Notes under the pieces: generated by a model
Told to the model about the DNA's origin: nothing
The model's input: the letters and a program-made list of their open reading frames with translations, nothing else
Database searches by the model: none
Position numbers and translations under genes: made by a program
Source of the DNA: Verrucomicrobia bacterium UBA3841
GTDB taxonomy: Bacteria > Verrucomicrobiota > Kiritimatiellia > RFP12 > UBA1067
DNA length: 30,421 nt
Assembly (NCBI GenBank): GCA_002392765.1
Contig: DGHT01000015.1
Location: forward strand, 16,531-46,951
Reading direction: 5' to 3'
Shown: piece by piece, positions 16,743 to 29,851 of the stretch
Position numbering within the stretch: the first letter of the stretch is position 1
Layout of the letters: each line of letters opens with the position of its first letter

Positions 16743-16818
16743 GTTTCTTTTTTCTGTTGCCATTCGACGCGGGCTTATGATATAATCCTTGCGAACCTCA
16801 AATCAGGTTCAAAAACCC
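16743..16818 (+). repeat. Left copy of 76-bp perfect direct repeat
   Basis: gtttcttttttctgttgccattcgacgcgggcttatgatataatccttgcgaacctcaaatcaggttcaaaaaccc is identical base for base to 29776-29851. The flanking bases differ on both sides. Confidence 0.95.
16757..16786 (+). promoter_or_regulatory. Sigma70-like promoter inside the left repeat
   Basis: TTGCCA (16757-16762), 18-nt spacer, TATAAT (16781-16786). The geometry matches the pcnB promoter. It faces the M48 gene. Confidence 0.45.
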
Positions 16819-16887
16819 GAAATAAAATGATCAAGTCCAGAAGAACGGGAGGGCGGCCGTCCCCGGCCGTCGAAACGGATCGAGGAA

Positions 16888-17781
16888 ATGAACTACAGAG
16901 AATTCATACACCCGGAGGACGAGGCGGCATTGCGCAATCTTGAGGCCGTTCCTGGTTTCGATACTGTCGCGCGCTTCATCCTGGAACATTTCACGGAAGA
17001 CATGATGCATGGTCTCTATATGGCGCAGAATGTACGCCTGTCGCCGTCGCAACTTCCGGAAATATTCAATCTGTTGCCGCCGATATGCGGAAAATTCGAA
17101 ATTGAATTGCCGGAATTTTACCTCACGATGGATCCTAGACCCAACGCCTGGACGATTGGCGACAAGCGCAAGTTCATCGTATTGACGAGCGGACTTCTTG
17201 ACCACATCGCCGACAAGGATGAATTGCAGTCCATAATCGCGCATGAATGCGGACACATTGTATGCCGGCACGTGCTGTACAACACCATTGCAATGCTGCT
17301 GGTGAAATTTGGCGAGAGCCTGGGCTTTGGCCGGATTGTCATCGCACCTATTCTCCTGGCCATAAAATATTGGCAGCGGCGCAGCGAGCTTTCCGCAGAC
17401 AGGGCGAGCGCGGTGTACACCGGCGGTCACGAAGTTCCGTGCCGTGCCCTGTTGAGGATATGCGGCGGACCTGACAACTTGACGAAAAACATCAACCTTC
17501 CGGAATATGCCGAACAGGCAAAGGCGTACGATGCATTGGTTGCAAAGAGCAAGTGGAACAAACTTCTTCAAAACATGGCGATAATGGATGCAGACCATCC
17601 TTTTGCCGCTGTTCGCGTACGAGAATTGTTGTCCTGGGCGGGTAGCGAACAGTTTGCGAAACTAAAGCAGGCGATGTCTGCGGCGGAAGTCTTGCCAATG
17701 TGTCGGAAGTGCGGACGGCGCATTGCTGCCGATGCGAAATTCTGCAGGTACTGCGGCAATAATTTGAAAGGAGAGAAGTGA
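16888..17781 (+). CDS. M48-family zinc metallopeptidase with C-terminal zinc ribbon
   Basis: HECGH at 17242-17256 is preceded by NAWT..FIVLTSGLL and followed by ELSADR (third zinc ligand region), as in the M48/HtpX-like family. The C-terminus is CRKCGRRIAADAKFCRYCG (CxxC-x10-CxxC). Confidence 0.75.
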   Translation: MNYREFIHPEDEAALRNLEAVPGFDTVARFILEHFTEDMMHGLYMAQNVRLSPSQLPEIFNLLPPICGKFEIELPEFYLTMDPRPNAWTIGDKRKFIVLTSGLLDHIADKDELQSIIAHECGHIVCRHVLYNTIAMLLVKFGESLGFGRIVIAPILLAIKYWQRRSELSADRASAVYTGGHEVPCRALLRICGGPDNLTKNINLPEYAEQAKAYDALVAKSKWNKLLQNMAIMDADHPFAAVRVRELLSWAGSEQFAKLKQAMSAAEVLPMCRKCGRRIAADAKFCRYCGNNLKGEK

Positions 17782-18020
17782 TGGGTATTGTGGAGAAACT
17801 GGACGAACTTGTCCAGAAGTCGGCGTCGTTCCGGAAAATAATGGAGGACGGCGTGGTTGAAGACAGCGAAGTTGAAGAGCAGGCAAAGCGGGTTGAGACG
17901 CTGCTTGCGGAGCTGGAGCGGAGTCTTTCGCCCGGTGATTTCGAGCGGGTCGCTGAGTTTATGGCAGAACTTTCGGTGCTGCAGGTGATCCTGCGCTACA
18001 ATCAGATTGGAGGACGGTGA
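17781..18020 (+). CDS. Small acidic, predicted helical protein
   Basis: 79-aa ORF whose ATG overlaps the upstream TGA (TGATG). No motif recognised. Support comes from operon packing only. Confidence 0.4.
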   Translation: MGIVEKLDELVQKSASFRKIMEDGVVEDSEVEEQAKRVETLLAELERSLSPGDFERVAEFMAELSVLQVILRYNQIGGR

Positions 18021-18021
18021 C

Positions 18022-18522
18022 ATGGCTTTCGCTTCGCAAATGAAATTCAACGTTTCGCCGAGCTGCATTCCGCACATGGCAAAGGCATTGGAGAATGCGC
18101 TCAGGGAAGAGGGATATGATACGAAGTGCGACACATTGTTGAACGGCGACGTTGTCGTTTCGCTGACAAAAGGAGGAATGTTCAAGGCTGTTGTCGGAAT
18201 GAAAACCGCGCTCAAAGTGGAGCTTCGCGCCGACTGCGGAAGCGTCCTTGCCAAGACGGGCGTCGGCATCTGGGGCCATCAGATAGTGCCAACCGTAATC
18301 ATGCTCCTCTGGTTCTGGCCTGTACTCATTACGCAGATATGGGGTCTTGTGCAGCAAAGCCGTCTTGACGCGCACGTGATGGATATCCTGTCCAGGGCGG
18401 TGTCCGGCGGGATGGACGCAATAGACGTTCCATCAGAGGACGTTTCCTCTGCCCGCTTTTGTTCCGAGTGCGGCAAGCCTGTCCACGGCAATTTCTGCTC
18501 CAACTGCGGCGCGAAGGTGTAA
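18022..18522 (+). CDS. Single-pass membrane protein with C-terminal zinc ribbon
   Basis: ATG at 18022, 8 nt after GGAGG (18009-18013). One hydrophobic helix (IVPTVIMLLWFWPVLITQIWGLV). The C-terminus is CSECGKPVHGNFCSNCG. Confidence 0.55.
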   Translation: MAFASQMKFNVSPSCIPHMAKALENALREEGYDTKCDTLLNGDVVVSLTKGGMFKAVVGMKTALKVELRADCGSVLAKTGVGIWGHQIVPTVIMLLWFWPVLITQIWGLVQQSRLDAHVMDILSRAVSGGMDAIDVPSEDVSSARFCSECGKPVHGNFCSNCGAKV

Positions 18523-18532
18523 GGAGGGGTTG

Positions 18533-20800
18533 ATGAACGGAATGGTGTTTGCGTTCAAGACGGCCGTGTACCTTGCGTTCGGGGCTTTGACGACCGCTGC
18601 AATGCTGCTTGTTATGGTGCGGGCGGCTCGGAATAAGTATGCGATGATATTGATTGGCGTATTTCTCTTCATCGCAGGGTTTGTTACATATTTCTCTCCG
18701 GTTGAGTCTTGCGGCAAAGCAGGCGGCTCGCACGGGATTCCCGGCAGTGCGAATGACTGCGCCCGTCCTGTGTCTGCAAATACGAATGAATGTTTGCGCG
18801 CAAACGCATGTATGGCGGATTCGACGCAAAACACTGCGGACGACATCTCCGCAGGCGGATGCGTTTTCATTAAAAACGGTGCAAAATCACTGTCGTCGGT
18901 GAACAGGACTCTCTCGGCTTTTTATCCGTCAAGAGGGGAGTACGACGACACGCCTCCACCAGGCTGGGGCGGGCTGAAATACTGGCTGTTCCATCTCGCC
19001 GCGATTCTTTATATCTTGACACTTGCGGTTTCCTACTTCGGTATTGAGCTGATCAACGCGGCGTCGCTGTGGATGCGCAAACAGGCGAAAAAATGGCGAC
19101 TCGGCGCATTCGTGCGGCAATCGGAATTGAATGTGTTCTGGGATGCGGGGCAGGAATCGGAAGCATTGGCCGGACAGATGCCGTCGAAAAGCGTCGTTTT
19201 CGCAATCGCAGCCGGCGGACGGTCGTGGCGTAAACTTCAGGACGACGATGCGATATGCAGACTTGTTCGCAAGGGTGTGTTGTGGATTTCTTCCGATTCC
19301 AAAACCAATCGCAGACTGCTGACAATCGCAAGACGCCATTTCTTCATCGGTCCGGACTGCCATGAAAACGTTGTGAAGGCGCAGAAATATGTTCAGTTTT
19401 TGTATGACGAAAACATTCGGCATAAGGTCGATGTGTATGTTCGCGTGTGGTCGGATGCCGATGATGACGCCGTCTACGCATGGGCGGACAAATGGAACGG
19501 CAGGTTTTCGAAAGAAGGATTCCTGACGCAGATAAACGTTCTGCGCGAAGAGTCCATCGTCTCCAGGAGATTCCTTGTAGACCATCCAATGCTGGATTGT
19601 CCCGGAGTGAGAGTTTCCGATTGCCATACGGCTTCTGTCGCAGGCGAATTCAAGTTGCTTGTTGTCGGCTTTGGCGTTCAGGGAGAGCGGCTTATGGGCG
19701 ACATGATCTGCGATGCGCAATTCCCGGACGGGAAAGGCGGCGCGATTCCGGTTTCCGTCGATGTGGTTGACAGGGACGATGCGTCGTTTGGATGGTGGAA
19801 GGCGAACTGCAAAGAGGCGTGTGCGCGGTATGGAATCCATTTCGAGAACTGTGCCGCCGAAAGCGACCGCTTTTGGAGGTTTATTGAAAGCCGTTGTGTG
19901 TACAACCGGATTGTGATCAGCACTCATGACGACATCTTGAATCTCCGGTTGGCGAACGACATTGCCAATTACTATGCTAAACGGTATAGGATGGATTATG
20001 CGGTACTGCGCAATACAATCTTCGCGCGCGTTCGCAGACCTTCGCTGTCCAAGGTGCTTTGCGGCGGCATGGCGGACAGATATCAGCTGTTCGGCGATGT
20101 ACTGGACACGTATTCTCCGAAATGGCTGCTGAACGACTCGTGGGACGATGGAGCAAAATTCATCAACGGTGTCTGGAGCGCCGTGTACGATGAAGATTTC
20201 AGGAAGCTTCCCGACGGGGCGGACGTGATCAGATGGTACCTCGACAATATGGATCGCGGCGAGAAATACTGGGCGGCAAGGCCAATGCTCGACAAGGAAT
20301 CTTCCCGTGCGTCGTTCTTGCACATGAGAAACATTTTGCGTCTGATGGGATATGAGTGCAGGCGTGACATGCCAACGGATGAGAATGCAGGGATAAAACA
20401 GCTGGAGATACCGGAAAACCAGAAGGAGGAGTTGAAATGCGCGGCCGGGGACGCAAAGCGCCGGGAGAAGCTTGCCGAGTCGGAACATTTGCGATGGATG
20501 GCCTTCCATTTTGTCCGGGGCTGGGAGAAGTGGAGCCCGACCGAGGACGAGCTTGAGAAGCTCTCCAACGGCGGCAAGAACAGAGTCGAGCCTAACAGCA
20601 TGAAGAGTCGTGCTCGCATACACGCGAACCTTGAGGATTTTGCCAGGCTGGACGAGGTTGACGAGAAGTTCAACATGATTAACAGGAAGAATGGCAGGGA
20701 GTCTGTTAATTCGAAGGACAAGGACATAAACATCATATATGGCATCGAAGCCATTTACGCGACCGGCTTTCGCGTGTTCAAAAAGGCGTGTGACACGTGA
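18533..20800 (+). CDS. Membrane protein with Rossmann-like (TrkA-N/RCK-like) region and C-terminal RyR-like domain
   Basis: ATG 5 nt after GGAGG (18523-18527). About three N-terminal hydrophobic helices. VVGFGVQG glycine-rich motif (GFGVQG at 19667-19684). The C-terminus EHLRWMAFHFVRGWEKW...IHANLEDFARLDEVDEKF...DKD resembles the RyR-domain pattern of the next gene. Confidence 0.55.
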   Translation: MNGMVFAFKTAVYLAFGALTTAAMLLVMVRAARNKYAMILIGVFLFIAGFVTYFSPVESCGKAGGSHGIPGSANDCARPVSANTNECLRANACMADSTQNTADDISAGGCVFIKNGAKSLSSVNRTLSAFYPSRGEYDDTPPPGWGGLKYWLFHLAAILYILTLAVSYFGIELINAASLWMRKQAKKWRLGAFVRQSELNVFWDAGQESEALAGQMPSKSVVFAIAAGGRSWRKLQDDDAICRLVRKGVLWISSDSKTNRRLLTIARRHFFIGPDCHENVVKAQKYVQFLYDENIRHKVDVYVRVWSDADDDAVYAWADKWNGRFSKEGFLTQINVLREESIVSRRFLVDHPMLDCPGVRVSDCHTASVAGEFKLLVVGFGVQGERLMGDMICDAQFPDGKGGAIPVSVDVVDRDDASFGWWKANCKEACARYGIHFENCAAESDRFWRFIESRCVYNRIVISTHDDILNLRLANDIANYYAKRYRMDYAVLRNTIFARVRRPSLSKVLCGGMADRYQLFGDVLDTYSPKWLLNDSWDDGAKFINGVWSAVYDEDFRKLPDGADVIRWYLDNMDRGEKYWAARPMLDKESSRASFLHMRNILRLMGYECRRDMPTDENAGIKQLEIPENQKEELKCAAGDAKRREKLAESEHLRWMAFHFVRGWEKWSPTEDELEKLSNGGKNRVEPNSMKSRARIHANLEDFARLDEVDEKFNMINRKNGRESVNSKDKDINIIYGIEAIYATGFRVFKKACDT

Positions 20801-21084
20801 TGAACGATGGCTATATCCCCCGTCCTCTCGACACATCGGACATATCCCTGCCCGAATCGCTCGTTGCGCTAATCGAGGCGTTGGCGGAGAATGTGCATGA
20901 CACATGGGCCAAAGGGCGAATGGACGGGGGCTGGACATACGGTCCGGTCCGCGACGACGCGAAGAAACAGCACCCCGGCCTAGTCCCGTACGCCGATCTC
21001 CCCGAATCCGAAAAGGCATACGACCGCGCCACGGCAATTTCGACGCTGAAGTTCATCTGCAAGAAGGGGTATTCTATCAAATGA
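20800..21084 (+). CDS. Stand-alone RyR-domain protein
   Basis: 94 aa. LAENVHDTWAKGRMDGGWTYGPVRDDAKKQHPGLVPYADLPESEKAYDRAT matches my memory of the RyR (ryanodine receptor repeat) domain consensus. TGATG overlap upstream and ATGA overlap downstream. Confidence 0.7.
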   Translation: MNDGYIPRPLDTSDISLPESLVALIEALAENVHDTWAKGRMDGGWTYGPVRDDAKKQHPGLVPYADLPESEKAYDRATAISTLKFICKKGYSIK

Positions 21085-22415
21085 CAGCTAATGAAGAACA
21101 TAGATGCCTGACGGAGTTCAAGGAACATCATTGGGACATGCTGCTTGATTACATCGGGCAGGGGCGTGTAGTGCCTGTATTAGGTCCGGAACTTTTGGTC
21201 GCAAATGAGGCGGGGCGAAGTGTTCCGTTCTATCAGGAGGTCTCTAGACGACTTGCACATCACTTCGACATGCCTGAAATTGAATCTGAGACGGTTAATG
21301 ATTTCATGTCCCGTTTTTTGAAGGGGAACAATACGGTAAAGATGGCTCGAACCGGCTTAATTAAGGTGTTGAAGGAACTCGAAGATCAACCGCAACCGTC
21401 TCTTCGGAAACTGGCATCGATAAATGCCTTCAAACTCTACCTGACGACAACGCCGGATAATCTGCTTGCAAAGGCATTGACCGCTTGCGGGACAGATCCT
21501 GATGTGTACTTCTTTAGTACCAATTACAAGCGCCGGAGCGACTTGCCGGACAAAAAACTGCTAGGTCGCCAACGTTACATTTATCACCTCTATGGGAAAG
21601 CTGCGCCATGTTTTGAGTATGCCATTTCAGAGGACGATCGCCTCTTGTTTTCGTGCGAATGGATGGATTCGCAGGTTAAGCCGAGGAATCTGCTGTCTTA
21701 TTTGGCGGACAAGTATCTATTGATTCTCGGATGCGGGTATGAAAATTGGCAAGCGCGCTTTTTCCTGTTTGGACTTAAGGGGGCGGAGTTGTTCTCCAAC
21801 ATTTGGGATGCAAGCAGCCTGTTGGCGGATTCGCACACCCGAAATGATGCCCAGCTTGACCGATTCCTCTCAAGGTGCAGAGGGAATATCTATTACGAAG
21901 GCGGGGCGATCAAGTTCGTGGACGAACTTTGCAAACGATTGGAGAATACTCCTGCCGTACCGTCAGAGAGGGAGGGTGATACGTTTGAGAAGGGCAGCAT
22001 CTTTATCAGCTATGCCAGCGAGGACAAAGAAGCCGCGCTCAAGATCAAGCGGCGCTTGGAGTCGTTTAGTCTTCCTGTTTGGCTTGACAAGTTTAGATTG
22101 GAAAGCGGTTCTGACTACGATGCGCGCATAGAGAACAACATAAGGAACAGCGCGCTCTTTATCCCAATCCTTTCTCAAACGACTGCGCAGACGGCTGAAC
22201 CACGCTACTTCCGCAAGGAATGGAATATTGCCGTAGACCAGTCGCTTAGGAGCTCCCCGAAAATTCCTTTTATTCACCCCATCGCACTTGATGGCGTCGA
22301 ACCTTGCGACAACATTCCCGGTGCGATAAATAAGGTTCATTGGATACACGCGCCAGGAGGCGAACTGAATGAATGCGACATTGACCGGCTTATTGATCTG
22401 ATCGCACAACTGTAG
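21081..22415 (+). CDS. SIR2-like (SIR2_2-type) domain fused to a C-terminal TIR domain
   Basis: The N-terminal half has, in SIR2_2 order, VVPVLGPELL, YLTTTPDNLL, IYHLYGK and LLILGCGYENWQARFF. The C-terminal part (from 21993) is TIR-like: IFISYASEDKE...LPVWLDKFRLESGSDY...ALFIPILSQ...YFRKEW. The listed ORF start at 20904 is an out-of-frame extension into the RyR gene. Confidence 0.65.
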   Translation: MTANEEHRCLTEFKEHHWDMLLDYIGQGRVVPVLGPELLVANEAGRSVPFYQEVSRRLAHHFDMPEIESETVNDFMSRFLKGNNTVKMARTGLIKVLKELEDQPQPSLRKLASINAFKLYLTTTPDNLLAKALTACGTDPDVYFFSTNYKRRSDLPDKKLLGRQRYIYHLYGKAAPCFEYAISEDDRLLFSCEWMDSQVKPRNLLSYLADKYLLILGCGYENWQARFFLFGLKGAELFSNIWDASSLLADSHTRNDAQLDRFLSRCRGNIYYEGGAIKFVDELCKRLENTPAVPSEREGDTFEKGSIFISYASEDKEAALKIKRRLESFSLPVWLDKFRLESGSDYDARIENNIRNSALFIPILSQTTAQTAEPRYFRKEWNIAVDQSLRSSPKIPFIHPIALDGVEPCDNIPGAINKVHWIHAPGGELNECDIDRLIDLIAQL

Positions 22416-22426
22416 GAGGCGTGTAT

Positions 22427-25400
22427 ATGTCTAATAATGTTTTCAAGTCCGCGTGGCCAGGTCTGAATTCCTACGAAGAGGAAGATCAATCCCGTTTCTT
22501 CGGAAGGGACAGGGAGATTGATCTTTTGAAGGATGTCATCGGCACTGAATCGTTATGTACGATTTACGGTGTTTCCGGCGTCGGGAAGACATCCCTGTTG
22601 CAGGCTGGTGTTTTCCCAGAGTTGCGGGCGCGTTGTTTCCTGCCAGTGTATTTGCGTCTGGGACATGACAAAATTGACAGGCCGTATGCAGCCCAAATCA
22701 TTGAAGGATGCCTCGCGGCGGCGCGGAAGTCAAGACTTGAGGTGGTAGAGACATGTCAGGCGCTGGGGGCGTCCGAACATGAGACGCTATGGGAATGGTT
22801 TCACAGGCATGAATTTTTGAACGCCGTCAAGAAAGTCGTGCGCCCGGTTCTTGTCATCGACCAGTTCGAGGAAGTGTTCACACAGGGGAGTGACAAGGCT
22901 GAAAAAGAGTCTTGGTTTGATGAATTGACCGACCTGTGTTCCAACAGCGTTCCGGAATCTGTTGCAGATTTCATGTCTAATTCTGAAAATGATTTGGCTT
23001 TCCAAACAGAGAACCAGACCTGGCGCACGGTAATCTGTTTGAGAGAAGATTTTCTCTCGCGTCTAGAAGAGCGAACTGTTGAGTACCCGATATTCAAGCG
23101 GAACCGCATATCAATAGGGCCGTTGAGTGCCGAAAACGCAATAGAGGCGGTACTGAAAGGCGGAGATGGAATTGTCGATCTGACAGTCGCCGAATGTATC
23201 GTAAGGTATGTAGGAGGTTCGGCCGGGAAAATTGAGACCCCATTGCTTTCGTTGTTTTGTTCGCGTCTTGACATCCTTCGGCAAAGGGCTGGGTTGCCGA
23301 AGATCTCGCAGGAACTCGTCGAAGGAAACAAGGGTAAGATACTGAACAGTTTCTACGATGAATCGATGGGGCTTGTTTCGGCGTCATCCCGCGACTATCT
23401 TGAGGCGAATCTTCTGAACGAGGGGGGCTACCGGACGCCGGTACAACTCGATGAGGCGGAACGGAACGGTGTCCGGCCCGAAGAATGGAAAACACTTGAA
23501 AGAGTTCGCCTGTTACATGTGATTTCACGTGACAATGTACAGTGGTTGGAATTTAGTCATGACACCTTGGCGCCGGTTGCGAAAAGCGCACTTGAAAGGC
23601 GAAAAGCGGACAGGGAACGGCATGTGATGCAGGAGAAGTTGGCTCGTTCACGTCGTCGCACCAGAAGGCTCTTCTATGCATTTGTCGGCTTTGTCGGCTT
23701 TATATGCATCGCATCGTTTGCAACGTGGTTTCTGTTCTACAAGGAACATGTTGCGTACTATAGGGAATTTACCAAGAAATGGGGATGTCCAGTTGGGGTC
23801 GGTGCGCCGCTTACGATGGAACAGGTGCGCCACAGGGAATGCAGTTTTAGAATGAAGCGAAAGGGTCTGTATTCGCGGCGCGGCTTCCATTTTGAACCCA
23901 CCTATGCATATCGCGTCGAGGCTGTCAACGGTCGTCTGCAACCGACGACCGCACATGGGATGGTGACGTATTTGTGGGGAGGGGAAAATACAGCAAAACA
24001 GATGCAGAAAGAATTGGATAAGCGGAATTCAAATTATAAAGGGGACGCAAAAAGCGTTGGTAAAGACAACGCAAATGACAACCGCAAAAGTGGCTATTTG
24101 ACGTCAACGAAACTGGGAACAGTTTGCACATGGGAATTCATGTGTGACAAAGATGGTTTGCCGGAACGCGAAATCGGCTATGACGAAAAGGGCGAAATAG
24201 TATGGATGATGCCGTATGCCGTGGAAGCCACTGCAAATAGCGGGAAGCCAGAGTCTGCGATTGTGCATTTTACAATGAAAGACAGTTATTCGGTGAGACA
24301 GCGGCTGGACGATGCAGAATATGTAAGAATAACATACGACGATAAAAGCGGTTATGAAACAAAATACGAGTTCCTCGATAGGTATGGTAATGAAACCATA
24401 GGACCGGATGGTGTGTATGCGCGATCTCGAGAGTATTATTCTTCGGGGCGACTTAAGAAGCACGCCTCTTTGGATGTAGCAGGGAATTACATCATTGACC
24501 TGGCTGGGAATACAGGCCTGCGGTATGAGTATTCAGATGACAATCGGGAAATGCGCGTCACATCATTTGGTACAAACGAAGAGGCAAAGGCTTTAAACGA
24601 TGGATGGGTAAAATGTGTGCAGCGATATGACGAATGGGGAAATCTTGCGGAGCAAAGTTTCTACGATGCGACAAATCGGCTGGCTCTTTCCGATGGATGG
24701 CCGAGTGCCATCGTTGAAAGGGATTCCTATGGTCTCAAACAATCAGTGACATTGAGGGGGCAGATGTCCAATGGAGAAGATTTGGAACAATATGTTCTTT
24801 TTGATGTCGAGGGCAATGCGACAAACGTAGTGTGGCGCAATGCAAATGACAAAAGACCTAGCTGTAAGCCGGGAACTGAAGTACACATGATCTGCCGAGA
24901 GTATGCAGGCAAGGACAGGGCTTCGGTCGAGTGGTATTTAGATGTGAATAATGAGGCGATCACAAATGAATATGGCGTTGCCAGGGATGTGAGTATATAT
25001 GACACATCAACAGGCATGCTCGACACGAATAACCTTTACGCCCTGCCAGGACAAGGTGGAGCGCTAGGATACACCAATGTCCATCATTCATGTACGAGTT
25101 TTGATGGGTTCGGAAACCAGACCGGAGAAAGGTATTTTGATGCGGATGGGAATCCTACTGCGGATAACAACGGTGTATTTGAGTGTAAGTACTTGTGGCA
25201 GGGTGGCTATAAGGTTAGAGATGACTACCTTGCGCCGAATGGCAAAGGCGGGGTTGGGGGCGGCACAAACGTGCATCACATGGTGAAAATCTACAAGACA
25301 GTCAATGGTGCGAATCTTTGCGTGTGCGAGAAGTATTATGGTTGCGACGAAAGCCCGGTCGCGAACAATTACGGCGTAGCGAGAGTGGAATATACGTATG

Positions 25401-26440
25401 ACACAGCCGGCGTTGAAAGACGCCGAGATATGTATTCGGCGGATGCCGCCGGAGGAATCTGGGGGTGCACAAATCTATGCCATGTACTTGAGACGCGTGA
25501 TGAAAGGGGAAACACCGAGACGCAGCAGTGTTTTGACAGGGATGGGCGATATGTCGCATCTGACGGCACTGGGATGGTTGTTGGTCGTATGTCTTACTTT
25601 CCCGGTTCAGGCGATAATCCGCCCGTCATATCCATGCTTGATGGTTTCTCAATGCCGACGGTTGGCTTTGGCAATGACGGAAGAAGATGCAGGGTGACGC
25701 GATTCTACCGTAAAGACGGAGGAGAAAGAAGGACTGAAGAAGTAGATTTCAGCGGTAATCGCCATATTGAGGAAAAGAATACTGACGGTAATGTCACCTC
25801 CGAGGAGTTTGCGGGTGCGAAAGATGGTGGAATTGCCGATTTCAGTCTGCACGGAGTGGCTAAAATCAATCGGTGTTATGGTATAAAACCTGCCACTTTG
25901 TTTGAGCGTATATTCGGTGGGGGAGTCAAGCATAAGGACATTTGTGTGCGCGAAATGTATCTTGATTCATCGGGGAATCCGGTCGTCAATCGTTTTGGTA
26001 TCGCGGGATGGCGCAAGGATACGGATTACTCATCCGGCAAAATTGGGAATACCTTGTACTTTGATGTTTCAAGTAATGAAATGAAAGTTGCCGTAGGCAG
26101 GATTGTGACACCCAGCAGGGTTAGACCGCTCGGTATGGCTGACAAGAATGGAATCAAGGTTGGCGATATAATCTGTCACTACAACGATTATGATATATTG
26201 CGTTCCTCCTTGGATGTCATGGAACAAGTCGTTTCAACCGGGATGAACGATAATAAACGGATTGTCATCGGCAGAAGAAATAAGAATGGCCAATACGACA
26301 TAATCCCATATATATTGCCTCCCGGTGTACTTAATTTTAATCTGGTTGATGTGCCGATTAGCGAGGAGTATTATAAAGAACTTGAACACGACTATAAGGC
26401 GTATCAGGCGTATTGCGAAAAAGAAAGCGGGATGAAGTAA
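22427..26440 (+). CDS. STAND-class P-loop NTPase with TM helix, YD/RHS-like repeat region and PDZ-like C-terminus
   Basis: ATG 7 nt after AGGAGG (22414-22419). The lead-in WPGLNSYEEEDQSRFFGRDRE is followed by Walker A GVSGVGKTS (22568-22594) and Walker B VLVIDQFEEVF. RRRTRR precedes the hydrophobic helix LFYAFVGFVGFICIASFATWFLFY (23669-23740). About 24100-26070 carries repeated YD..GN / FD.DGNP.....GV motifs. The C-terminal part is GIKVGDII...GRRNKNGQYD...LVDV. Confidence 0.7.
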   Translation: MSNNVFKSAWPGLNSYEEEDQSRFFGRDREIDLLKDVIGTESLCTIYGVSGVGKTSLLQAGVFPELRARCFLPVYLRLGHDKIDRPYAAQIIEGCLAAARKSRLEVVETCQALGASEHETLWEWFHRHEFLNAVKKVVRPVLVIDQFEEVFTQGSDKAEKESWFDELTDLCSNSVPESVADFMSNSENDLAFQTENQTWRTVICLREDFLSRLEERTVEYPIFKRNRISIGPLSAENAIEAVLKGGDGIVDLTVAECIVRYVGGSAGKIETPLLSLFCSRLDILRQRAGLPKISQELVEGNKGKILNSFYDESMGLVSASSRDYLEANLLNEGGYRTPVQLDEAERNGVRPEEWKTLERVRLLHVISRDNVQWLEFSHDTLAPVAKSALERRKADRERHVMQEKLARSRRRTRRLFYAFVGFVGFICIASFATWFLFYKEHVAYYREFTKKWGCPVGVGAPLTMEQVRHRECSFRMKRKGLYSRRGFHFEPTYAYRVEAVNGRLQPTTAHGMVTYLWGGENTAKQMQKELDKRNSNYKGDAKSVGKDNANDNRKSGYLTSTKLGTVCTWEFMCDKDGLPEREIGYDEKGEIVWMMPYAVEATANSGKPESAIVHFTMKDSYSVRQRLDDAEYVRITYDDKSGYETKYEFLDRYGNETIGPDGVYARSREYYSSGRLKKHASLDVAGNYIIDLAGNTGLRYEYSDDNREMRVTSFGTNEEAKALNDGWVKCVQRYDEWGNLAEQSFYDATNRLALSDGWPSAIVERDSYGLKQSVTLRGQMSNGEDLEQYVLFDVEGNATNVVWRNANDKRPSCKPGTEVHMICREYAGKDRASVEWYLDVNNEAITNEYGVARDVSIYDTSTGMLDTNNLYALPGQGGALGYTNVHHSCTSFDGFGNQTGERYFDADGNPTADNNGVFECKYLWQGGYKVRDDYLAPNGKGGVGGGTNVHHMVKIYKTVNGANLCVCEKYYGCDESPVANNYGVARVEYTYDTAGVERRRDMYSADAAGGIWGCTNLCHVLETRDERGNTETQQCFDRDGRYVASDGTGMVVGRMSYFPGSGDNPPVISMLDGFSMPTVGFGNDGRRCRVTRFYRKDGGERRTEEVDFSGNRHIEEKNTDGNVTSEEFAGAKDGGIADFSLHGVAKINRCYGIKPATLFERIFGGGVKHKDICVREMYLDSSGNPVVNRFGIAGWRKDTDYSSGKIGNTLYFDVSSNEMKVAVGRIVTPSRVRPLGMADKNGIKVGDIICHYNDYDILRSSLDVMEQVVSTGMNDNKRIVIGRRNKNGQYDIIPYILPPGVLNFNLVDVPISEEYYKELEHDYKAYQAYCEKESGMK

Positions 26441-26508
26441 TGACATCTAAGCGAACGCTTACGGGTTTCCGCGGATTATATCCGGCATATTAGGTTGTTT
26501 TGCGACAG

Positions 26509-26542: not shown

Positions 26543-26565
26543 GATATGAATTATGGTATACTTGT

Positions 26566-27060
26566 GTGCAAAATGAGGATTTGAACATGATAGATCGTCC
26601 TTATGGGCTTAAGTGGCTTTGGCAATGGAAAGACCATGAGCCGATAAAAGTCGTCACCGGCATACGACGGTGCGGCAAATCGACATTGCTTTCAATGTTT
26701 CAGGAGCAATTGCGCGAAGACGGCATCAACGCCGATCAGATTGTCGCAATCAACTTTGAGCATCCGGATTTCATGGAACTTGACAATTCCGCCGCCGTAT
26801 GGAAATACTTGAAGCCGAAAATTGCCCAGGGACGAAATGCATACGTTTTCCTTGATGAAATTCAGCGTGTAAGAGACTTTGAAAAGGTGGTTGACGGACT
26901 TTTGTGCTGCCTGGCGTTGATGTCCTGTTGCGCTTGATGCCGTGGTACGATACATCTTCGACAACATCGGGAATCTCACGAGCATGCGGAATATCGCGAC
27001 AGTCCTGAAGTCTGAAGGCGTTTCAATTGATGCTTCTTCTGTTGAGGACTATGTCTCCGC
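26566..27060 (+). pseudogene. Decayed AAA_14 / DUF4143-family ATPase gene
   Basis: The N-terminal fragment has Walker A GIRRCGKST and Walker B VFLDEIQ, then a premature stop at 26935-26937. A second fragment in another frame (from 26942) reads VRYIFDNIGNLTSMRNIATVLK..SVEDYVSAL, like the DUF4143 part. Intact family members are, from memory, roughly 400 aa. Confidence 0.6.
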
Positions 27061-27063
27061 CCT

Positions 27064-27112
27064 GTGCGGCACGGGCGGTCGGCGGCGAATGGCGTTGCGA
27101 TCGTGTATAGTC
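27064..27112 (+). pseudogene. 49-nt fragment of a histidine phosphatase gene 5' end
   Basis: Ungapped alignment to 29067-29115 matches at 42 of 49 nt, including 27 of the first 28. It translates to VRHGRSAANGVAIVYS against VRHGRSAANEDPTVYS in the intact gene. There is no start codon in frame. Confidence 0.7.
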
Positions 27113-27212
27113 TACGGTATTGGCGATGTAGTTTAAGAATTTTGTGAAATTTAAGTTGGAAATTGCAAGATAAATGTGGCGATAAAACTGTACCATCTAT
27201 TGGAGTTGCGAA

Positions 27213-29018
27213 ATGAACAAGTCACAACAATACGATATCTTCATTTCATACCGCCGCGAGGGCGGATATGACACGGCGCAGCTGCTGTACGACCGGTTGA
27301 CGCAGATGGGCTATCGCGTGTCGTTCGACCTGGAGACGCTGCGCGGCGGGAAGTTCAACACGCAGCTCTACCGGCGCATCGAGCAATGCTCCGACATGCT
27401 TGTCATCATGAGCAGGGATTCTCTTAACCTTCGCGAGAATCACGAGGACGACTGGTTCCGGCTGGAGATCGCCCACGCGCTGAAGCACAAGAAGAACATC
27501 GTCCCCGTGTTCCTGCGTGACTTCAAGTTCCCTCAGAAAGGGGAGTTGCCAGACGATATAGCCGACCTGGTGGACTATCAGGGCGTCACGGCGTCGCAGG
27601 AACATTTCGACAGTGTGCTGAATCGGATATGCAGGAACTTCAAGGCGAAGCCCCATCGGCGCAAATGGCCGGTAGTCGCCGCCATTGCCGCAGCTCTTCT
27701 TGTCGGCGCGGGGATTGGAGTCTGGTTGAAGGCAGACAAGATTTTCCCGTATCCTTTTACCAGAGAGGCAAGACAGGAGGTTGATGCATACTATGGAACT
27801 GTGTTGCGGATTGGGGCCGCCTACAATGAATTTCTGTCCGCAAAGATGGAACTTCTTGACAAGGTCAGTTTGAGTATAGAAGCTGAAGACAAGGCGCCAT
27901 ATCAAGCCGCCGTACCAGAGTTCTTGCATCGACGCGGAATGGCGAGAAAAAATCTCGACGCCGCTGCTGAGGCGTTGGAAAGAGTTGTCAAGGAGAACCC
28001 CGGATTGCGTGTGGATCGCGCATACATACCGAATTTCCTGGAGGGGGTACGACAGGAATTCGGCGATGCGGATGAGTGGGCTGCTCTTTTCAGCCTCCCG
28101 TGTGATCCTGATTACGTATGCTCAAAGGCAAACAGGATTAGGATTGTCATGCTCAATCGCAAGGAGATTGAGATATATGCCGACGTGTTTGCCTATGGCG
28201 TCATGTTCCTTTTCGACATGATTTCGCCGGAAGCGCTCGCTGACTTTAGGGAAGTCGCGGCAAAACAGTGGACGATGTTGAAGCGGTTCAGAGGTGAATG
28301 GCTGTCAGATCAAAAGCAGATTGAACAGAATGGCGAGGCTTCGCTGAACCAGCTTCAAGAAGTGGTCGAGGAGCGTGCGCAGATAATAGGAAATACGGCA
28401 CAGGCCCTGGAGCAGGCTAAGCGCAACACCAGGCAAATGAGAATGGACGCGGGAATGTCGCCGGAACAAGCCGAGAGAATCGGCAAGAAGGAGGAGGAGC
28501 TTGAGAATTTGAAGGCGCAGAGGAAAGAGACGCAAAAAGCGATAGCGGATGCACGAGAGCGGCTCCGCAAGAAGTTCGCGCCGAAGGATGATGACGACAT
28601 TGGAATACTCTGGGGCAAGGCGTTGCGGTTCATGTCAGTCAATATGCCGGAGGAGGCGAAGCGGTGTGCAGATGTTTTGCGTCGGCGCAATACGCCGGAT
28701 TTCCCGCCATCGGCGATAGACACCGCGGAGGCGATCATCCTGTCTAAAGGCGCGTTGCCGTTTGTGGGTGGTGTCTTGGTTTGTTCATACGAACCGCCGG
28801 CTACGTCTCATGCGATATTCAAAATCGGAGACGTCGTCACGGAAGTGAACGAGAAACCATGTCTGTACTTCGAGGATTACAGCAGCAAGGCCGGCAACAC
28901 CTACACGATATACCGTCGAAACGCGAAGGGCCAGTTTGACAAGCTGACGGCAACCATGCCTGAAGGCCAGCCGCGTGTGGCTCTGGTGGATTTGGCGGAG
29001 AAGGGCGACCGCAAGTAG
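27213..29018 (+). CDS. TIR domain - TM helix - coiled-coil region - PDZ-like C-terminal domain protein
   Basis: GGAG lies 7 nt upstream of the ATG. TIR start YDIFISYRREGGYD...VIMSRDSL...DDWFRLEIAHAL...IVPVFL. KAKPHRRK precedes the helix WPVVAAIAAALLVGAGIGVWL (27666-27728). A charged heptad-like stretch runs about 28300-28580. The C-terminus is IFKIGDVVTEVN...YRRNAKGQFD...LVDL. Confidence 0.75.
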   Translation: MNKSQQYDIFISYRREGGYDTAQLLYDRLTQMGYRVSFDLETLRGGKFNTQLYRRIEQCSDMLVIMSRDSLNLRENHEDDWFRLEIAHALKHKKNIVPVFLRDFKFPQKGELPDDIADLVDYQGVTASQEHFDSVLNRICRNFKAKPHRRKWPVVAAIAAALLVGAGIGVWLKADKIFPYPFTREARQEVDAYYGTVLRIGAAYNEFLSAKMELLDKVSLSIEAEDKAPYQAAVPEFLHRRGMARKNLDAAAEALERVVKENPGLRVDRAYIPNFLEGVRQEFGDADEWAALFSLPCDPDYVCSKANRIRIVMLNRKEIEIYADVFAYGVMFLFDMISPEALADFREVAAKQWTMLKRFRGEWLSDQKQIEQNGEASLNQLQEVVEERAQIIGNTAQALEQAKRNTRQMRMDAGMSPEQAERIGKKEEELENLKAQRKETQKAIADARERLRKKFAPKDDDDIGILWGKALRFMSVNMPEEAKRCADVLRRRNTPDFPPSAIDTAEAIILSKGALPFVGGVLVCSYEPPATSHAIFKIGDVVTEVNEKPCLYFEDYSSKAGNTYTIYRRNAKGQFDKLTATMPEGQPRVALVDLAEKGDRK

Positions 29019-29042
29019 GCAGGCGAGATTAAGACAAATGCA

Positions 29043-29702
29043 ATGAAACCTAAGCGAATAATCCTAGTGCGGCACGGACGGTCGGCGGCGAATGAGGATC
29101 CGACCGTGTACAGTCGTGTGCCCGACTACAAGATCGAGCTTGTGGAGCAGGGGCTGGAAGAGGCTCGCCGGGCTGGAGAGCATATTCGCGATCTGATTGG
29201 ATCCGAATCCTACGGTGTGTATGTTTCGCCGTATCGCCGTACCTTGCAGACCAAGGAATGCATTGTTGAACGGATAGGTTTTGCGCCTGCATTTGATTAT
29301 CAGGAACCATACCTTCGCGAGCAGGAGATGGGCAATATGCCGGCAATCATCGATAATGAGTTGAACTGGGCGGCACGAAAGAAGTACGGGACGTTCTTCT
29401 ATCGATTCCCGGACGGCGAGTCGTGCGCGGACATCTATGACCGCATGTGCGGATTCCTCGACAATCTCCACCGGCAGTTTGGCAATCCGGACTATCCCCG
29501 GAACATCATAATCGTCACGCACAGCGTCGCCATGTGCTGCTTCCTCTTCCGCTGGTATCACTGGACGGTGGAGAAGTTCGACTCTCTGCCGCTCTTGCCA
29601 AACTGCCACATCGCCGTCATGACACGCGGAGATGACGGGGCGTTTGTGCTGACCGAGCCATATTCCATGAAACCGTATCTGTCAACTGACGACAACCAAT
29701 GA
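29043..29702 (+). CDS. Histidine phosphatase superfamily (phosphoglycerate mutase-like) protein
   Basis: The N-terminal RIILVRHGRSAAN carries the RHG catalytic motif. SPYRRTLQT and IIIVTHSVAM follow at the expected spacing. 219 aa. Confidence 0.75.
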   Translation: MKPKRIILVRHGRSAANEDPTVYSRVPDYKIELVEQGLEEARRAGEHIRDLIGSESYGVYVSPYRRTLQTKECIVERIGFAPAFDYQEPYLREQEMGNMPAIIDNELNWAARKKYGTFFYRFPDGESCADIYDRMCGFLDNLHRQFGNPDYPRNIIIVTHSVAMCCFLFRWYHWTVEKFDSLPLLPNCHIAVMTRGDDGAFVLTEPYSMKPYLSTDDNQ

Positions 29703-29761
29703 AGTACGACATTTTTGCAAGCTGCTCGCGCAAGGACAGCCTGGTTGTCCAGTCCATCTGA
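29699..29761 (+). pseudogene. 20-codon stump of a TIR-domain gene
   Basis: Its ATG overlaps the phosphatase TGA (ATGA). It reads MKYDIFASCSRKDSLVVQSI then stop. YD(I/V)F(I/A)S.SRKD is the typical first strand of bacterial TIR domains. It ends 14 nt before the right repeat. Confidence 0.5.
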
Positions 29762-29775
29762 ACAAGCCGATTTAA

Positions 29776-29851
29776 GTTTCTTTTTTCTGTTGCCATTCGA
29801 CGCGGGCTTATGATATAATCCTTGCGAACCTCAAATCAGGTTCAAAAACCC
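29776..29851 (+). repeat. Right copy of 76-bp perfect direct repeat
   Basis: Identical to 16743-16818. Confidence 0.95.
29790..29819 (+). promoter_or_regulatory. Sigma70-like promoter inside the right repeat
   Basis: TTGCCA (29790-29795), 18-nt spacer, TATAAT (29814-29819). It lies 59 nt upstream of the ATG at 29879, which has GGAGG upstream. Confidence 0.45.

What the first reader, a model, noticed from the sequence alone, without database searches (positions are those of the whole stretch)
16743..29851. 13.1-kb insertion bracketed by a perfect 76-bp direct repeat next to tRNA-Gln, with no integrase
Seen: identical 76-mers lie at 16743-16818 and 29776-29851, and the flanks differ immediately on both sides. 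The left copy starts 14 nt after the tRNA-Gln CCA end. Sample 60-nt lines give 26/60 G+C (21301) and 25/60 (24301) inside. They give 38/60 (7501) and 34/60 (10501) outside, and 38/60 again at 27301, so the interior is a mosaic. The interior also holds a pseudogene, a gene fragment and a gene stump. No ORF resembles a tyrosine or serine recombinase or a transposase. Inference: this is an old or immobilised integrative island, or a cassette exchanged by homologous recombination across the repeat.
Basis: partly seen in the sequence, partly recalled or inferred. Interest (0 to 1): 0.75.

Follow-up and report, generated by a model that had tools for sequence, protein, structure and literature searches.

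The report
Duplicated promoter brackets acquired immune-gene block
A 13-kb block of horizontally acquired TIR/STAND immune-type genes sits just after a tRNA-Gln gene in an uncultured rumen bacterium, bracketed by two identical copies of a 76-base promoter module rather than by integrase attachment sites, which makes it a tidy but fairly ordinary recombinase-less genomic island.

Summary
Identical 76-mers lie at 16743-16818 and 29776-29851 (79/80 over 80 nt). The left copy starts 14 nt after tRNA-Gln. The interior has lower, mosaic G+C, three gene remnants and no recombinase.

The repeat is not derived from the tRNA. It is a complete promoter module: a T-rich tract, TTGCCA, an 18-nt spacer, TGaTATAAT, and a 6-bp hairpin. 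One copy sits upstream of the first block gene (M48 peptidase). The other sits upstream of the resident 251-aa gene.

The interior is a conserved multi-gene system: M48/Zn-ribbon, 79 aa, 166 aa, about 700 aa, a RyR domain, variable TIR/STAND proteins and His_Phos_1-TIR. Other Kiritimatiellae carry it at unrelated sites, without the 76-mer and without a tRNA. Here it is cut short at both ends compared with those relatives. It is therefore an internal fragment of a larger locus, not an intact mobile element.

ispE-tRNA-Gln is conserved in relatives, and each has different genes downstream.

Best reading: recombinational, integrase-independent insertion at a promoter, which duplicated that promoter.

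No conspecific genome lacking the block was available, so the empty site and the genome-wide copy number of the 76-mer remain untested.

The parts
15773..16669 (+). ispE (GHMP kinase), the last conserved core gene of the left flank; its 3' end overlaps tRNA-Gln
   Evidence: Pfam GHMP_kinases_N/C. The called gene is in L001. The same aminotransferase, ~480-aa protein, ispE, tRNA-Gln arrangement occurs in relatives L015, L017 and L018.
16655..16728 (+). tRNA-Gln (anticodon UUG)
   Evidence: ARAGORN; Rfam tRNA, 57 bits; 73/74 identical to the tRNA in L015 and L017.
16743..16818 (+). Left copy of the 76-nt repeat, a promoter/leader module: T-rich tract 16743-16756, -35 TTGCCA 16757-16762, TG 16778-16779, -10 TATAAT 16781-16786, hairpin GAACCU/AGGUUC 16793-16798 / 16805-16810
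   Evidence: Repeat. Promoter match 11/12 with an extended -10. Hairpin -7.1 kcal/mol, z = -2.85. It lies 70 nt upstream of the M48 start.
16819..16873 (+). Left junction filler, 55 nt with no homologue found (contains a GC-rich hairpin)
   Evidence: Nucleotide homology to the L021 and L110 groups starts at 16874 (L026 group at 16900). No hit to any relative.
16888..17781 (+). M48 metallopeptidase with a C-terminal zinc ribbon, the first gene of the block
   Evidence: Pfam Peptidase_M48 3e-20 and Zn_Ribbon_1. Homologues up to 91% identical.
17781..18020 (+). 79-aa protein, a conserved core component
   Evidence: 86-92% identical in L021-L029 at the same position.
18022..18522 (+). 166-aa protein with a C-terminal zinc ribbon, a conserved core component
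   Evidence: Pfam DZR (weak). 74-77% identical in close relatives and 37-47% in dozens of gut contigs.
18533..20800 (+). 755-aa protein of unknown fold; a fast-diverging component at a conserved position
   Evidence: No Pfam, PADLOC, NCBIfam or PDB sequence hit. Only 32-39% identical in relatives whose neighbouring genes are 74-92% identical.
20800..21084 (+). RyR-domain protein, 94 aa
   Evidence: Pfam RyR 3e-34. PDB RyR Repeat12 domains and the bacterial 3nrt.
21081..22415 (+). TIR-domain protein, 444 aa, with a weak SIR2-like N-terminal region
   Evidence: Pfam TIR_2 5e-19; SIR2_2 only 0.006; PADLOC TIR models.
22427..26440 (+). nSTAND1 NTPase, 1337 aa; lowest G+C of the block
   Evidence: Pfam nSTAND1 3e-30; GC3 0.50. 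The pair with the preceding TIR gene recurs in L039, L058, L094, L099 and L102.
26587..27060 (+). Pseudogene: the AAA_14 N-terminal fragment (26587-26937) plus an out-of-frame C-terminal-like tail
   Evidence: PADLOC PDC-S01 2e-34, covering profile positions 9-115 of 412 only. Frame-shifted tail.
27064..27111 (+). His_Phos_1 gene fragment, 16 codons
   Evidence: 86% nt identity to 29067-29115. Translation VRHGRSAANGVAIVYS.
27213..29018 (+). TIR protein, 601 aa, with a SARM1-type NADase TIR domain
   Evidence: Pfam TIR_2 8e-15. PDB TIR-1/SARM1, E 7e-22. The 5' end is 84% nt identical to the L026 TIR642 gene.
29043..29702 (+). His_Phos_1 phosphatase, 219 aa; the last intact gene of the block
   Evidence: Pfam 4e-26. 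79% nt and 84% aa identical to the L026 HisPhos219 gene.
29699..29761 (+). Stump of a TIR gene, 20 codons (MKYDIFASCSRKD...), overlapping the His_Phos_1 stop
   Evidence: Same position and motif as the start region of the L026 TIR245 gene (MKYDVFISAKSED).
29762..29775 (+). Right junction, 14 nt between the stump's stop codon and the right repeat
   Evidence: Sequence read directly. No homologue found.
29776..29851 (+). Right copy of the 76-nt promoter module (-35 29790-29795, -10 29814-29819, hairpin 29826-29843)
   Evidence: It lies 27 nt upstream of the 29879 start codon, which is preceded by GGAGG.
29879..30421 (+). Resident 251-aa secreted-type protein gene (runs off the window), the first gene of the right-flank operon (then His_Phos_1 247 aa and a 3265-aa CotH/LTD protein)
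   Evidence: Full gene in L006 and L009. No family hit. Homologues 71-84% identical in unrelated contexts.

Best explanation
The 76-mer is a complete sigma-70-type promoter plus 5'-leader module. It has been duplicated on either side of a 12.96-kb horizontally acquired block.

The block is an internal fragment of a conserved Kiritimatiellae immune-type gene cluster. That cluster has an M48/Zn-ribbon/RyR core followed by variable TIR and STAND proteins and a His_Phos_1-TIR pair. The fragment has lost the cluster's native upstream gene and promoter on the left. On the right it has lost the rest of a TIR gene and everything beyond it.

It lies in the variable region downstream of ispE-tRNA-Gln. 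The left promoter copy now reads into the acquired M48 operon. The right copy reads into the resident 251-aa gene operon, so both are expressed from identical promoter and possible operator sequences.

The most likely origin is recombinational insertion that did not use an element-encoded integrase. Candidate routes are a Campbell-type single crossover or homology-facilitated illegitimate recombination, anchored on the shared ispE-tRNA-promoter region of a conspecific donor. Either would leave one promoter copy on each side. The two copies now allow precise RecA-mediated loss of the block, leaving one promoter copy in front of the 251-aa gene.

**Shown:** the repeat, its promoter-like anatomy and positions, the foreign and mosaic composition, the truncation at both ends, the absence of recombinase genes, and the synteny break after tRNA-Gln.

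**Inferred:** promoter activity, the recombination route, and excision by recombination across the repeat.
For: - **Repeat and its anatomy:**. It is the only intergenic 11/12 promoter match with an extended -10 in the window. The same TGnTATAAT style precedes genes in relatives.
- **Positions:** the copies lie at -145..-70 and -103..-28 from two weakly similar or unrelated start codons.
- **The block is a conserved system found elsewhere:**
- **Left edge:** nucleotide homology to the L021 and L110 groups begins at 16874 and to the L026 group at 16900. Those relatives share several hundred nt of upstream gene and promoter with one another that the window lacks.
- **Right edge:** the block ends in a stump of the TIR gene that is intact in L026.
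- **No recombinase:**
- **No tRNA-derived repeat:**
- **Foreign origin:** system genes are 74-92% identical to homologues, against 28-74% for housekeeping neighbours. GC3 and GC skew are deviant.
- **Variable site:** relatives keep ispE-tRNA-Gln, and each has different genes downstream.
- **Precedent:** many HGT hotspots lack integrases, and their flanking core genes recombine frequently (PMC5635113).
Against: - No genome of this species without the block was available, so insertion as opposed to ancestral presence rests on composition and on distant relatives only.
- The genome-wide copy number of the 76-mer is unknown. Only 40.6 kb of the genome could be searched.
- The Campbell or homology-facilitated route presupposes a donor that already had the promoter next to the block. 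That pushes the first event back one step.
- 76 bp is short for efficient RecA recombination.
- Promoter activity is predicted from a consensus match only.
- Perfect identity with sharp boundaries is also what a site-specific att core would look like.
Confidence: 0.5

Rival explanations
1. The two 76-mers are attL and attR of a non-autonomous integrative element (CIME-like). It is inserted and excised by a site-specific recombinase encoded elsewhere in the genome or on a helper element. The element carries a copy of the promoter so that the downstream host gene stays expressed, much as tRNA-targeting islands restore the tRNA 3' end.
For: - Perfect identity with sharp boundaries on both sides.
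- Location 14 nt from a tRNA gene.
- No recombinase inside.
- Foreign composition.
Against: - The block is truncated at both ends relative to the natural gene system, within 55 nt and about 36 nt of the repeats. Its ends therefore do not look like element termini.
- The same system in other genomes is never flanked by the 76-mer, by other long direct repeats, or by a tRNA.
- No match to the repeat in the viral, phage or plasmid collections.
- The system is absent from IMG/VR.
- The repeat contains no tRNA sequence.
Confidence: 0.2
2. The 76-mer is a dispersed, multi-copy 'mobile promoter' or small repeat family of this genome. Two members happen to sit in front of neighbouring operons, and the repeat is not a scar of the block's insertion.
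For: - Both copies satisfy the published criteria for putative mobile promoters: at least 80% identity over at least 50 nt within -150..-50 of non-paralogous genes (PMC3575422; positions).
- The repeat's limits coincide with those of a functional promoter module.
Against: - Only two copies occur in the 40.6 kb of this genome that could be read, and none in 1.17 Mb of other loci.
- No hits in the GTDB representatives, the metagenome-contig collection or IMG/VR.
- The two copies coincide exactly with the limits of the compositionally foreign, truncated block. That would be a striking coincidence for unrelated copies.
Confidence: 0.15
3. Both promoter copies pre-existed around a larger, older resident cluster, and the present edges were made by later deletions. 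On the left, a deletion fused the promoter to M48 (promoter capture). On the right, a deletion removed the genes from the TIR gene up to the second promoter.
For: - Stumps and fragments inside the block show that deletions and cassette shuffling have occurred here repeatedly.
- The order HisPhos stump, TIR601, HisPhos219, TIR stump differs from the L026 order HisPhos219, TIR245, TIR642.
Against: - It needs two independent deletions, each ending within a few tens of nt of a repeat copy.
- It still does not explain how a perfect 76-nt duplicate arose.
- Perfect identity argues for a recent event.
Confidence: 0.1
4. Assembly artefact. The real molecules are an empty chromosomal site plus a separate circular or otherwise located 13-kb segment that shares the 76-mer, and the assembler threaded them together.
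For: - In k=31 Logan assemblies the graph is left flank, repeat, block, repeat, right flank, with contigs breaking exactly at the repeat. That topology alone cannot tell the integrated form from a circle.
Against: - Several longer-k assemblies (ENA scaffold 65.8 kb, an NCBI contig 67.8 kb, four 50-200-kb contigs in all) give the integrated order without a break or any N.
- A 76-nt repeat is shorter than typical reads, so both junctions should be read through directly.
Confidence: 0.05

Closest known systems
tRNA-associated genomic / pathogenicity islands with flanking direct repeats (attL/attR)
   Same: A block of foreign composition next to a tRNA gene, bracketed by perfect direct repeats tens of bases long, carrying accessory (here immune-type) genes and gene remnants.
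   Different: - No integrase.
- The repeat starts 14 nt after the tRNA and contains none of it.
- The repeat is a promoter module.
- The block's ends cut through a gene system, so they are not element termini.
- Relatives of the cargo are never tRNA-linked.
CIMEs (cis-mobilisable elements) and other non-autonomous att-flanked islands mobilised in trans
   Same: Flanked by identical direct repeats and devoid of recombination or transfer genes.
   Different: - CIMEs derive from ICE/IME decay and keep recognisable att sites of a known integrase family.
- Here no cognate element or integrase is known, and both ends look like arbitrary breakpoints.
Putative mobile promoters / promoter reuse (Matus-Garcia, Nijveen and van Passel 2012; PMC3575422)
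   Same: Identical sequence of at least 50 nt in the -150..-50 region of two genes with at most marginal protein similarity (27% over 127 residues, E 0.002) in one genome. It matches no Rfam family and no IS.
   Different: - Those families were defined genome-wide. Here only two copies are known, and they delimit an inserted block exactly, which points to a by-product of insertion and not to free promoter mobility.
Integrase-less HGT / defence hotspots between conserved core genes (Oliveira et al. 2017, PMC5635113; Johnson et al. 2023, PMC10250203, abstract only)
   Same: Variable, defence-rich content at a fixed chromosomal position flanked by conserved genes, with no mobility genes. Turnover is attributed to homologous recombination.
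   Different: - In those hotspots recombination is thought to occur in the flanking core genes. Here a short internal 76-nt repeat offers an additional, precise substrate.
- Hotspot status cannot be shown at species level because no other strains are available.
TIR-based anti-phage systems (Thoeris) and STAND/NLR-like defence NTPases
   Same: The cargo encodes several TIR proteins (one with a SARM1-type NADase domain), an nSTAND1 NTPase and a RyR-domain protein. Phage RyR-domain proteins bind or cleave TIR-made cADPR signals (PMC13232231).
   Different: - No ThsA-type effector was identified.
- Hits to Thoeris models fall far below their cut-offs.
- The M48, 79-aa, 166-aa and ~700-aa core matches no PADLOC model.

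Membership tests
tRNA-targeting integrative island (integrase-mediated) | Tyrosine or serine integrase gene inside the island, usually next to the tRNA-proximal end | tested here: not met
   Pfam on all + strand genes and the long - strand ORFs, plus NCBIfam and PADLOC on the + strand genes, found no recombinase or transposase domain. Three proteins (79, 166 and 755 aa) are unannotated but hold conserved positions in the gene system in all relatives.
tRNA-targeting integrative island (integrase-mediated) | Flanking direct repeats formed by duplication of the tRNA 3' end | tested here: not met
   The repeat begins 14 nt after the CCA end. No tRNA fragment longer than 14 nt occurs elsewhere in the window.
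tRNA-targeting integrative island (integrase-mediated) | Deviant base composition and codon usage | tested here: met
   Block G+C 0.513 against 0.585 in the left flank. GC3 0.50-0.70 against 0.68-0.77. Stronger GC skew.
tRNA-targeting integrative island (integrase-mediated) | Presence/absence polymorphism with an empty site that keeps one repeat copy; excised circles | not testable with these tools
   Every assembly that holds the flanks also holds the block. The nearest other genomes have IspE only 60% identical. There is no read-level access.
Non-autonomous att-flanked element (CIME-like) | The ends correspond to the natural termini of a decayed ICE/IME, and a cognate integrase exists in trans | tested here: inconclusive
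   The ends are truncation points of a gene system, which argues against natural termini. The rest of the genome could not be searched for a cognate recombinase.
Putative mobile promoter (PMP) | At least 80% identity over at least 50 nt within -150..-50 of the start codons of two genes in one genome | tested here: met
   The left copy spans -145..-70 of the M48 start. The right copy spans -103..-28 of the 29879 start, with 54 nt inside the -150..-50 window. Identity is 100%.
Putative mobile promoter (PMP) | The downstream coding sequences are not paralogous | tested here: met
   No nucleotide similarity beyond the repeat. The proteins share only a marginal local match: 27% over 127 aa, single-comparison E 0.002.
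Putative mobile promoter (PMP) | Not a known IS, tRNA or RNA family | tested here: met
   Rfam with permissive E-values found only the tRNA. No transposase was found.
Integrase-less defence/HGT hotspot | A conserved flanking core gene with different accessory content in different genomes | tested here: inconclusive
   ispE-tRNA-Gln is conserved, and L015, L017 and the window each have different downstream genes. However, these are different species (74% or lower aa identity), and their downstream genes are housekeeping genes, not accessory ones.
Thoeris (TIR-based defence) | ThsB-type TIR protein plus a ThsA-type (SIR2/SLOG or Macro) effector that passes the family cut-offs | tested here: not met
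   PADLOC ThsB hit of only 28 bits. NCBIfam Thoeris type III ThcB4 41.5 bits against a cut-off of 220. SIR2_2 E 0.006, below the gathering score.

The most novel reading that the evidence does not exclude
The 76-nt promoter module is a portable 'promoter-att' site. A recombinase-less immune-gene cassette would be gained and lost at a promoter, by RecA or by an unlinked site-specific recombinase acting on the 76-mer. Because the recombination site is itself a complete promoter, every insertion would automatically supply transcription for the incoming cassette and also restore it for the resident gene. This would be a previously undescribed way for defence cassettes to move without their own mobility genes.
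Probability: 0.12. Interest if true: 0.7.

Novelty: new variant of a known kind. Interest (0 to 1): 0.4.

Why it matters
How defence islands that carry no mobility genes get in and out of chromosomes is still poorly understood.

This locus is a clean example in which the only structural trace of the event is a duplicated promoter. That duplication both expresses the incoming genes and preserves expression of the resident operon. It also provides a ready-made substrate for precise loss.

If the pattern recurs in other genomes, duplicated promoters could serve as markers for recombinase-independent insertions.

The cargo is of independent interest. It is a widespread M48/Zn-ribbon/RyR core followed by variable TIR and STAND proteins, and it matched no model in the defence library used (PADLOC-DB v2.0.0, 2023). 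It places a bacterial RyR-domain protein beside NADase-type TIR proteins, and phage RyR-domain proteins have just been reported to bind or cleave TIR-made signals.

Tried and rejected
1. **Exact scans with a 32-nt core of the repeat** (TTGCCA...TATAATCC). GTDB representative genomes, the metagenome-contig collection and IMG/VR all gave 0 hits. blastn of the repeat with its flanks against the phage and plasmid collections gave only chance matches.
2. **Rfam with permissive E-values over 16500-30421** found only the tRNA, so the leader hairpin is not a known RNA family.
3. **Empty-site search through homologues of the right-flank 251-aa gene.** Its ~80% homologues lie in unrelated neighbourhoods, with different upstream sequence and no tRNA. 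They are not orthologous sites.
4. **Empty-site search through IspE.**
   - The search for related loci on the reference genomes returned only a 29% spirochaete hit.
   - The protein search showed the nearest IspE is 60% identical. Only distant synteny could be compared.
5. **Recent duplication of the two His_Phos_1 genes** (219 aa inside the block, 247 aa outside): rejected. They are 32% identical over 106 aa.
6. **Xer/dif-type (IMEX) insertion:** set aside. Cumulative GC skew rises monotonically across the window with no switch. By eye the 76-mer shows no convincing dif-like palindrome; this was not tested formally.
7. **Transposon target-site duplication:** rejected from general knowledge. 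76 nt is far longer than any known target-site duplication, and no transposase is present.
8. **Phage carriage of the cargo:** no relative of the M48 gene in IMG/VR.
9. **Flanking direct repeats around the homologous systems** in L021, L022 and L026: none found.
10. **Structure prediction of the 755-aa protein:** not attempted.

Full report
**1. The observation**

- The window holds a perfect 76-nt direct repeat at 16743-16818 and 29776-29851. It extends to 79/80 over 80 nt, and the flanks show no similarity on either side.
- tRNA-Gln(UUG) lies at 16655-16728, so the left copy begins 14 nt after the CCA end.
- The left flank is 58.5% G+C and the block 51.3%. The block has three zones: 53.8%, 48.3% and 54.3%.
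- GC3 falls from 0.68-0.77 in the left-flank genes to 0.50-0.56 in the central TIR/nSTAND/AAA_14 genes. It returns to 0.66-0.71 to the right of the block.
- GC skew is also much stronger inside the block.
- The three gene remnants are real.
  - A truncated AAA_14 gene at 26587-26937 matches only the N-terminal quarter of the PADLOC PDC-S01 profile.
  - A 16-codon His_Phos_1 fragment at 27064-27111 is 86% identical in DNA to the start of the intact gene 2 kb downstream.
  - A 20-codon TIR stump at 29699-29761 overlaps the His_Phos_1 stop codon.
- No recombinase or transposase domain was found. Pfam covered every + strand gene and the long antisense ORFs. NCBIfam and PADLOC covered the + strand genes.

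**2. Source and reliability of the assembly**

- The window is part of a 65.8-kb metagenome scaffold (ENA ERZ28612947, scaffold_970).
- The same proteins occur on an NCBI contig of 67.8 kb and in two Logan run assemblies.
- In the k=31 Logan assemblies the left flank, the block (a 13,017-bp contig) and the right flank are separate contigs. Each ends in exactly 30 nt of the repeat. That is how a true repeat behaves in a de Bruijn graph.
- The topology alone would also fit an empty site plus a circle. However, the longer-k assemblies read straight through both junctions, and the window has no N.
- I therefore treat the integrated order as real and give the artefact reading about 5%.
- The organism is an uncultured Kiritimatiellae-type bacterium. 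Named homologues are from Kiritimatiellae and Lentisphaerae MAGs.

**3. What the repeat is**

- The repeat contains no tRNA sequence, and no tRNA fragment occurs at the right end.
- It reads as a complete promoter module.
  - It begins with a T-rich tract, followed by TTGCCA, an 18-nt spacer, and TG-a-TATAAT.
  - That is an 11/12 match with an extended -10, and the only intergenic match of that quality in the window.
  - A 6-bp hairpin, GAACCU-N6-AGGUUC, lies just after the expected transcription start (-7.1 kcal/mol, z = -2.85).
- The same TGnTATAAT style precedes genes in related genomes.
- The left copy lies 70 nt upstream of the first block gene, the M48 peptidase at 16888.
- The right copy lies 27 nt upstream of the 251-aa gene at 29879, which has a GGAGG ribosome-binding site.
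- The two downstream proteins show only a marginal local similarity.
- Both copies meet the published operational definition of putative mobile promoters (PMC3575422).
- Promoter activity itself is inferred, not shown.

**4. What the block is**

- The interior is not a random collection of genes. Its order is:
  - M48 peptidase with a zinc ribbon;
  - a 79-aa protein;
  - a 166-aa zinc-ribbon protein;
  - a 755-aa protein;
  - a 94-aa RyR-domain protein;
  - TIR and STAND proteins;
  - His_Phos_1, then a TIR gene.
- This order recurs in other Kiritimatiellae contigs, with M48 81-91% identical (L021-L031, L110-L112).
- In looser form it recurs in dozens of gut and rumen contigs, with M48 45-52% identical.
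- The core genes are 74-92% identical to these homologues. The middle ~700-aa protein is only 32-39% identical, and the genes after RyR differ from locus to locus.
- The housekeeping neighbours of the window reach only 74% (aminotransferase), 60% (IspE) and 28% to the nearest relatives in the same databases. This supports lateral spread of the system.
- The cargo has an immune character.
  - The 601-aa protein carries a SARM1-type NADase TIR domain (E 7e-22).
  - There is an nSTAND1 NTPase (E 3e-30).
  - The RyR protein is a canonical single RyR repeat.
- Phage RyR-domain proteins were recently reported to bind or cleave TIR-made cADPR signals (PMC13232231).
- None of the core proteins matches a PADLOC model. 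Thoeris membership fails the family cut-offs.

**5. The edges of the block**

This is the most informative result.

- **Left edge.**
  - Nucleotide homology to the L021 and L110 groups starts at window position 16874, 14 nt before the M48 start. Homology to the L026 group starts at 16900.
  - Those relatives share several hundred nt of upstream sequence with one another, including an 87-99-aa gene and its promoter.
  - The window has none of this. Instead it has the 76-mer plus 55 nt of unmatched sequence.
- **Right edge.**
  - L026 has His_Phos_1 (219 aa), TIR (245 aa), then TIR (642 aa). The first TIR start overlaps the His_Phos_1 stop.
  - The window keeps His_Phos_1 (79% nt identity). It has only about 13 homologous codons of the following TIR gene, then a stop, 14 nt, and the right 76-mer.
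- **Conclusion.** The block is an internal fragment of a larger locus, cut at both ends within a few tens of bases of the repeat copies. Its ends are not the natural termini of a mobile element.
- **Signs of earlier rearrangement inside the block.**
  - The order His_Phos_1 stump, TIR601 (homologue of the L026 TIR642), His_Phos_1, TIR stump differs from the order in L026.
  - The central low-G+C genes form a separate compositional layer.

**6. The site**

- The aminotransferase, ~480-aa protein, ispE, tRNA-Gln arrangement is conserved in the nearest relatives. This includes the 15-nt overlap of ispE with the tRNA, which is 73/74 identical.
- What follows differs in each genome. L015 has a convergent rotamase/recO cluster, L017-L019 have dxs, and the window has the block.
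- The 3' side of tRNA-Gln is therefore a synteny breakpoint in this group.
- These are different species, so this is not a presence/absence polymorphism.
- The homologous gene systems elsewhere are never next to a tRNA (28 loci).
- They never carry the 76-mer.
- They show no flanking direct repeats.
- They are absent from viral contigs.

**7. Mechanism**

The facts that any explanation must accommodate are these:

- a perfect 76-nt duplication with sharp limits;
- those limits coincide with a functional promoter unit;
- one copy sits in front of the acquired genes and one in front of the resident gene;
- the cargo is truncated at both ends;
- there is no recombinase.

I consider insertion by general recombination, without an element-encoded integrase, the best fit (about 0.5).

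- One possible route runs as follows.
  - A conspecific donor carries the promoter followed by the cluster.
  - Its DNA pairs with the recipient through the shared ispE-tRNA region.
  - Its far end joins illegitimately just upstream of the recipient's own promoter.
  - The result is exactly the observed order, with a promoter on each side.
- A Campbell-type crossover of a circularised fragment at the 76-mer gives the same product.

Functional consequences, all inferred:

- Both operons would be driven by identical promoter, and possibly operator, sequences.
- The repeat allows precise loss of the block.

Rival explanations:

- **att sites used by a recombinase in trans (0.2).** The sharp identity fits. 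The truncated ends and the lack of any related element argue against it.
- **A dispersed promoter family whose two copies are unrelated to the insertion (0.15).** This cannot be excluded without the whole genome. Only two copies occur in the 40.6 kb available, and they coincide with the limits of the block.
- **Two later deletions around an older cluster (0.1).**
- **Assembly artefact (0.05).**

**8. Comparison with known kinds**

- The locus works like a recombinase-less accessory island in a variable region. Many such HGT hotspots lack integrases (PMC5635113).
- Its repeat fits the operational class of reused promoters (PMC3575422).
- It fails two defining tests for a classical tRNA-targeting integrative island: there is no integrase, and the repeat is not derived from the tRNA.
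- I rate it a new variant of a known kind. The unusual point is that the flanking repeat is a whole promoter module serving both the incoming and the resident operon.

**9. Limits**

- No conspecific genome without the block, and no read data, were accessible. The empty site, excised circles and the genome-wide copy number of the 76-mer remain untested.
- Two strain-level variants of the right-flank protein exist on short contigs in other samples.

Noticed in passing
window 16888-21084 with 21081-29702; also L021-L031, L110-L112 and many of L033-L109: A conserved gene neighbourhood that matches no model in PADLOC-DB v2.0.0: M48 peptidase with a Zn ribbon, a 79-aa protein, a ~165-aa Zn-ribbon protein, a 640-755-aa protein, and a RyR-domain protein, followed by a variable series of TIR/STAND proteins. 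It recurs in dozens of gut and rumen metagenome contigs, and its core has no PADLOC hit. Phage RyR-domain proteins were recently reported to bind or cleave TIR-made cADPR (PMC13232231). A host-encoded RyR protein beside NADase-type TIR genes may therefore be a signalling or self-protection component of a new defence system.
   Followed up: partly
window 18533-20800 (755-aa protein) versus L021 4105-6231 and L026 11666-13597: The large protein in the middle of the conserved core is only 32-39% identical between loci whose neighbouring genes are 74-92% identical. Its length also varies, from 643 to 755 aa. This pattern would fit a diversifying specificity or sensor component. It has no Pfam, NCBIfam, PADLOC or PDB sequence match.
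   Followed up: partly
window 18460-18524; L021 4023-4081 and 12646-12704; L022 1966-2024 and 8861-8919: The same ~60-nt zinc-ribbon coding tail (CSECGKPV.GNFC.NCGAKV) ends different proteins of one locus: the ~165-aa core protein and a TIR/FGE-sulfatase protein. The window's copy is 91% identical to the tail in the other gene of L021. It may be a shared docking module, or it may be spread by gene conversion.
   Followed up: no
window 29879-30421 (full gene L006 10837-11592); L011 4149-4907; L012 545-1303: The 251-aa secreted-type protein just right of the block has no family assignment. It is nevertheless 71-84% identical to proteins that head quite different operons in other contigs (Virul_Fac/SrfB, FGE-sulfatase/RHS). 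That is much more conserved than IspE at 60%. It also shows a marginal local match to the M48 protein: KFGESLGFG against KYGESLGNG, pairwise E 0.002.
   Followed up: partly
window 15641-15830 and 15760-15828: The 3' end of the 496-aa gene and the start of ispE overlap in a run of GAC/GAT codons (poly-Asp in one frame, Thr/Met-rich in the other). It is a 9-nt-period repeat family (family D3).
   Followed up: no
window 2079-2264 and 9379-9497: Two in-gene tandem repeat tracts: an 18/24/42-nt periodic Pro/Ala/Glu-rich tract and a 9-nt periodic tract. Both lie in left-flank genes of unknown function (families D1 and D2).
   Followed up: no
L021 8215-10242: Three tandem 864-nt repeats (100%, 100% and 94% identical over the 300-nt stretches reported) inside the 1566-aa gene that follows RyR. 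Sister contigs L022 and L023 have 990-aa and 1278-aa versions of this gene, so the repeat number varies between samples.
   Followed up: no
L011 3140-3290: Five or six tandem copies of a ~26-nt unit (TTGGTCAGACCTTTTAATGTAT-like) lie in a 1.5-kb intergenic region upstream of a homologue of the 251-aa gene.
   Followed up: no
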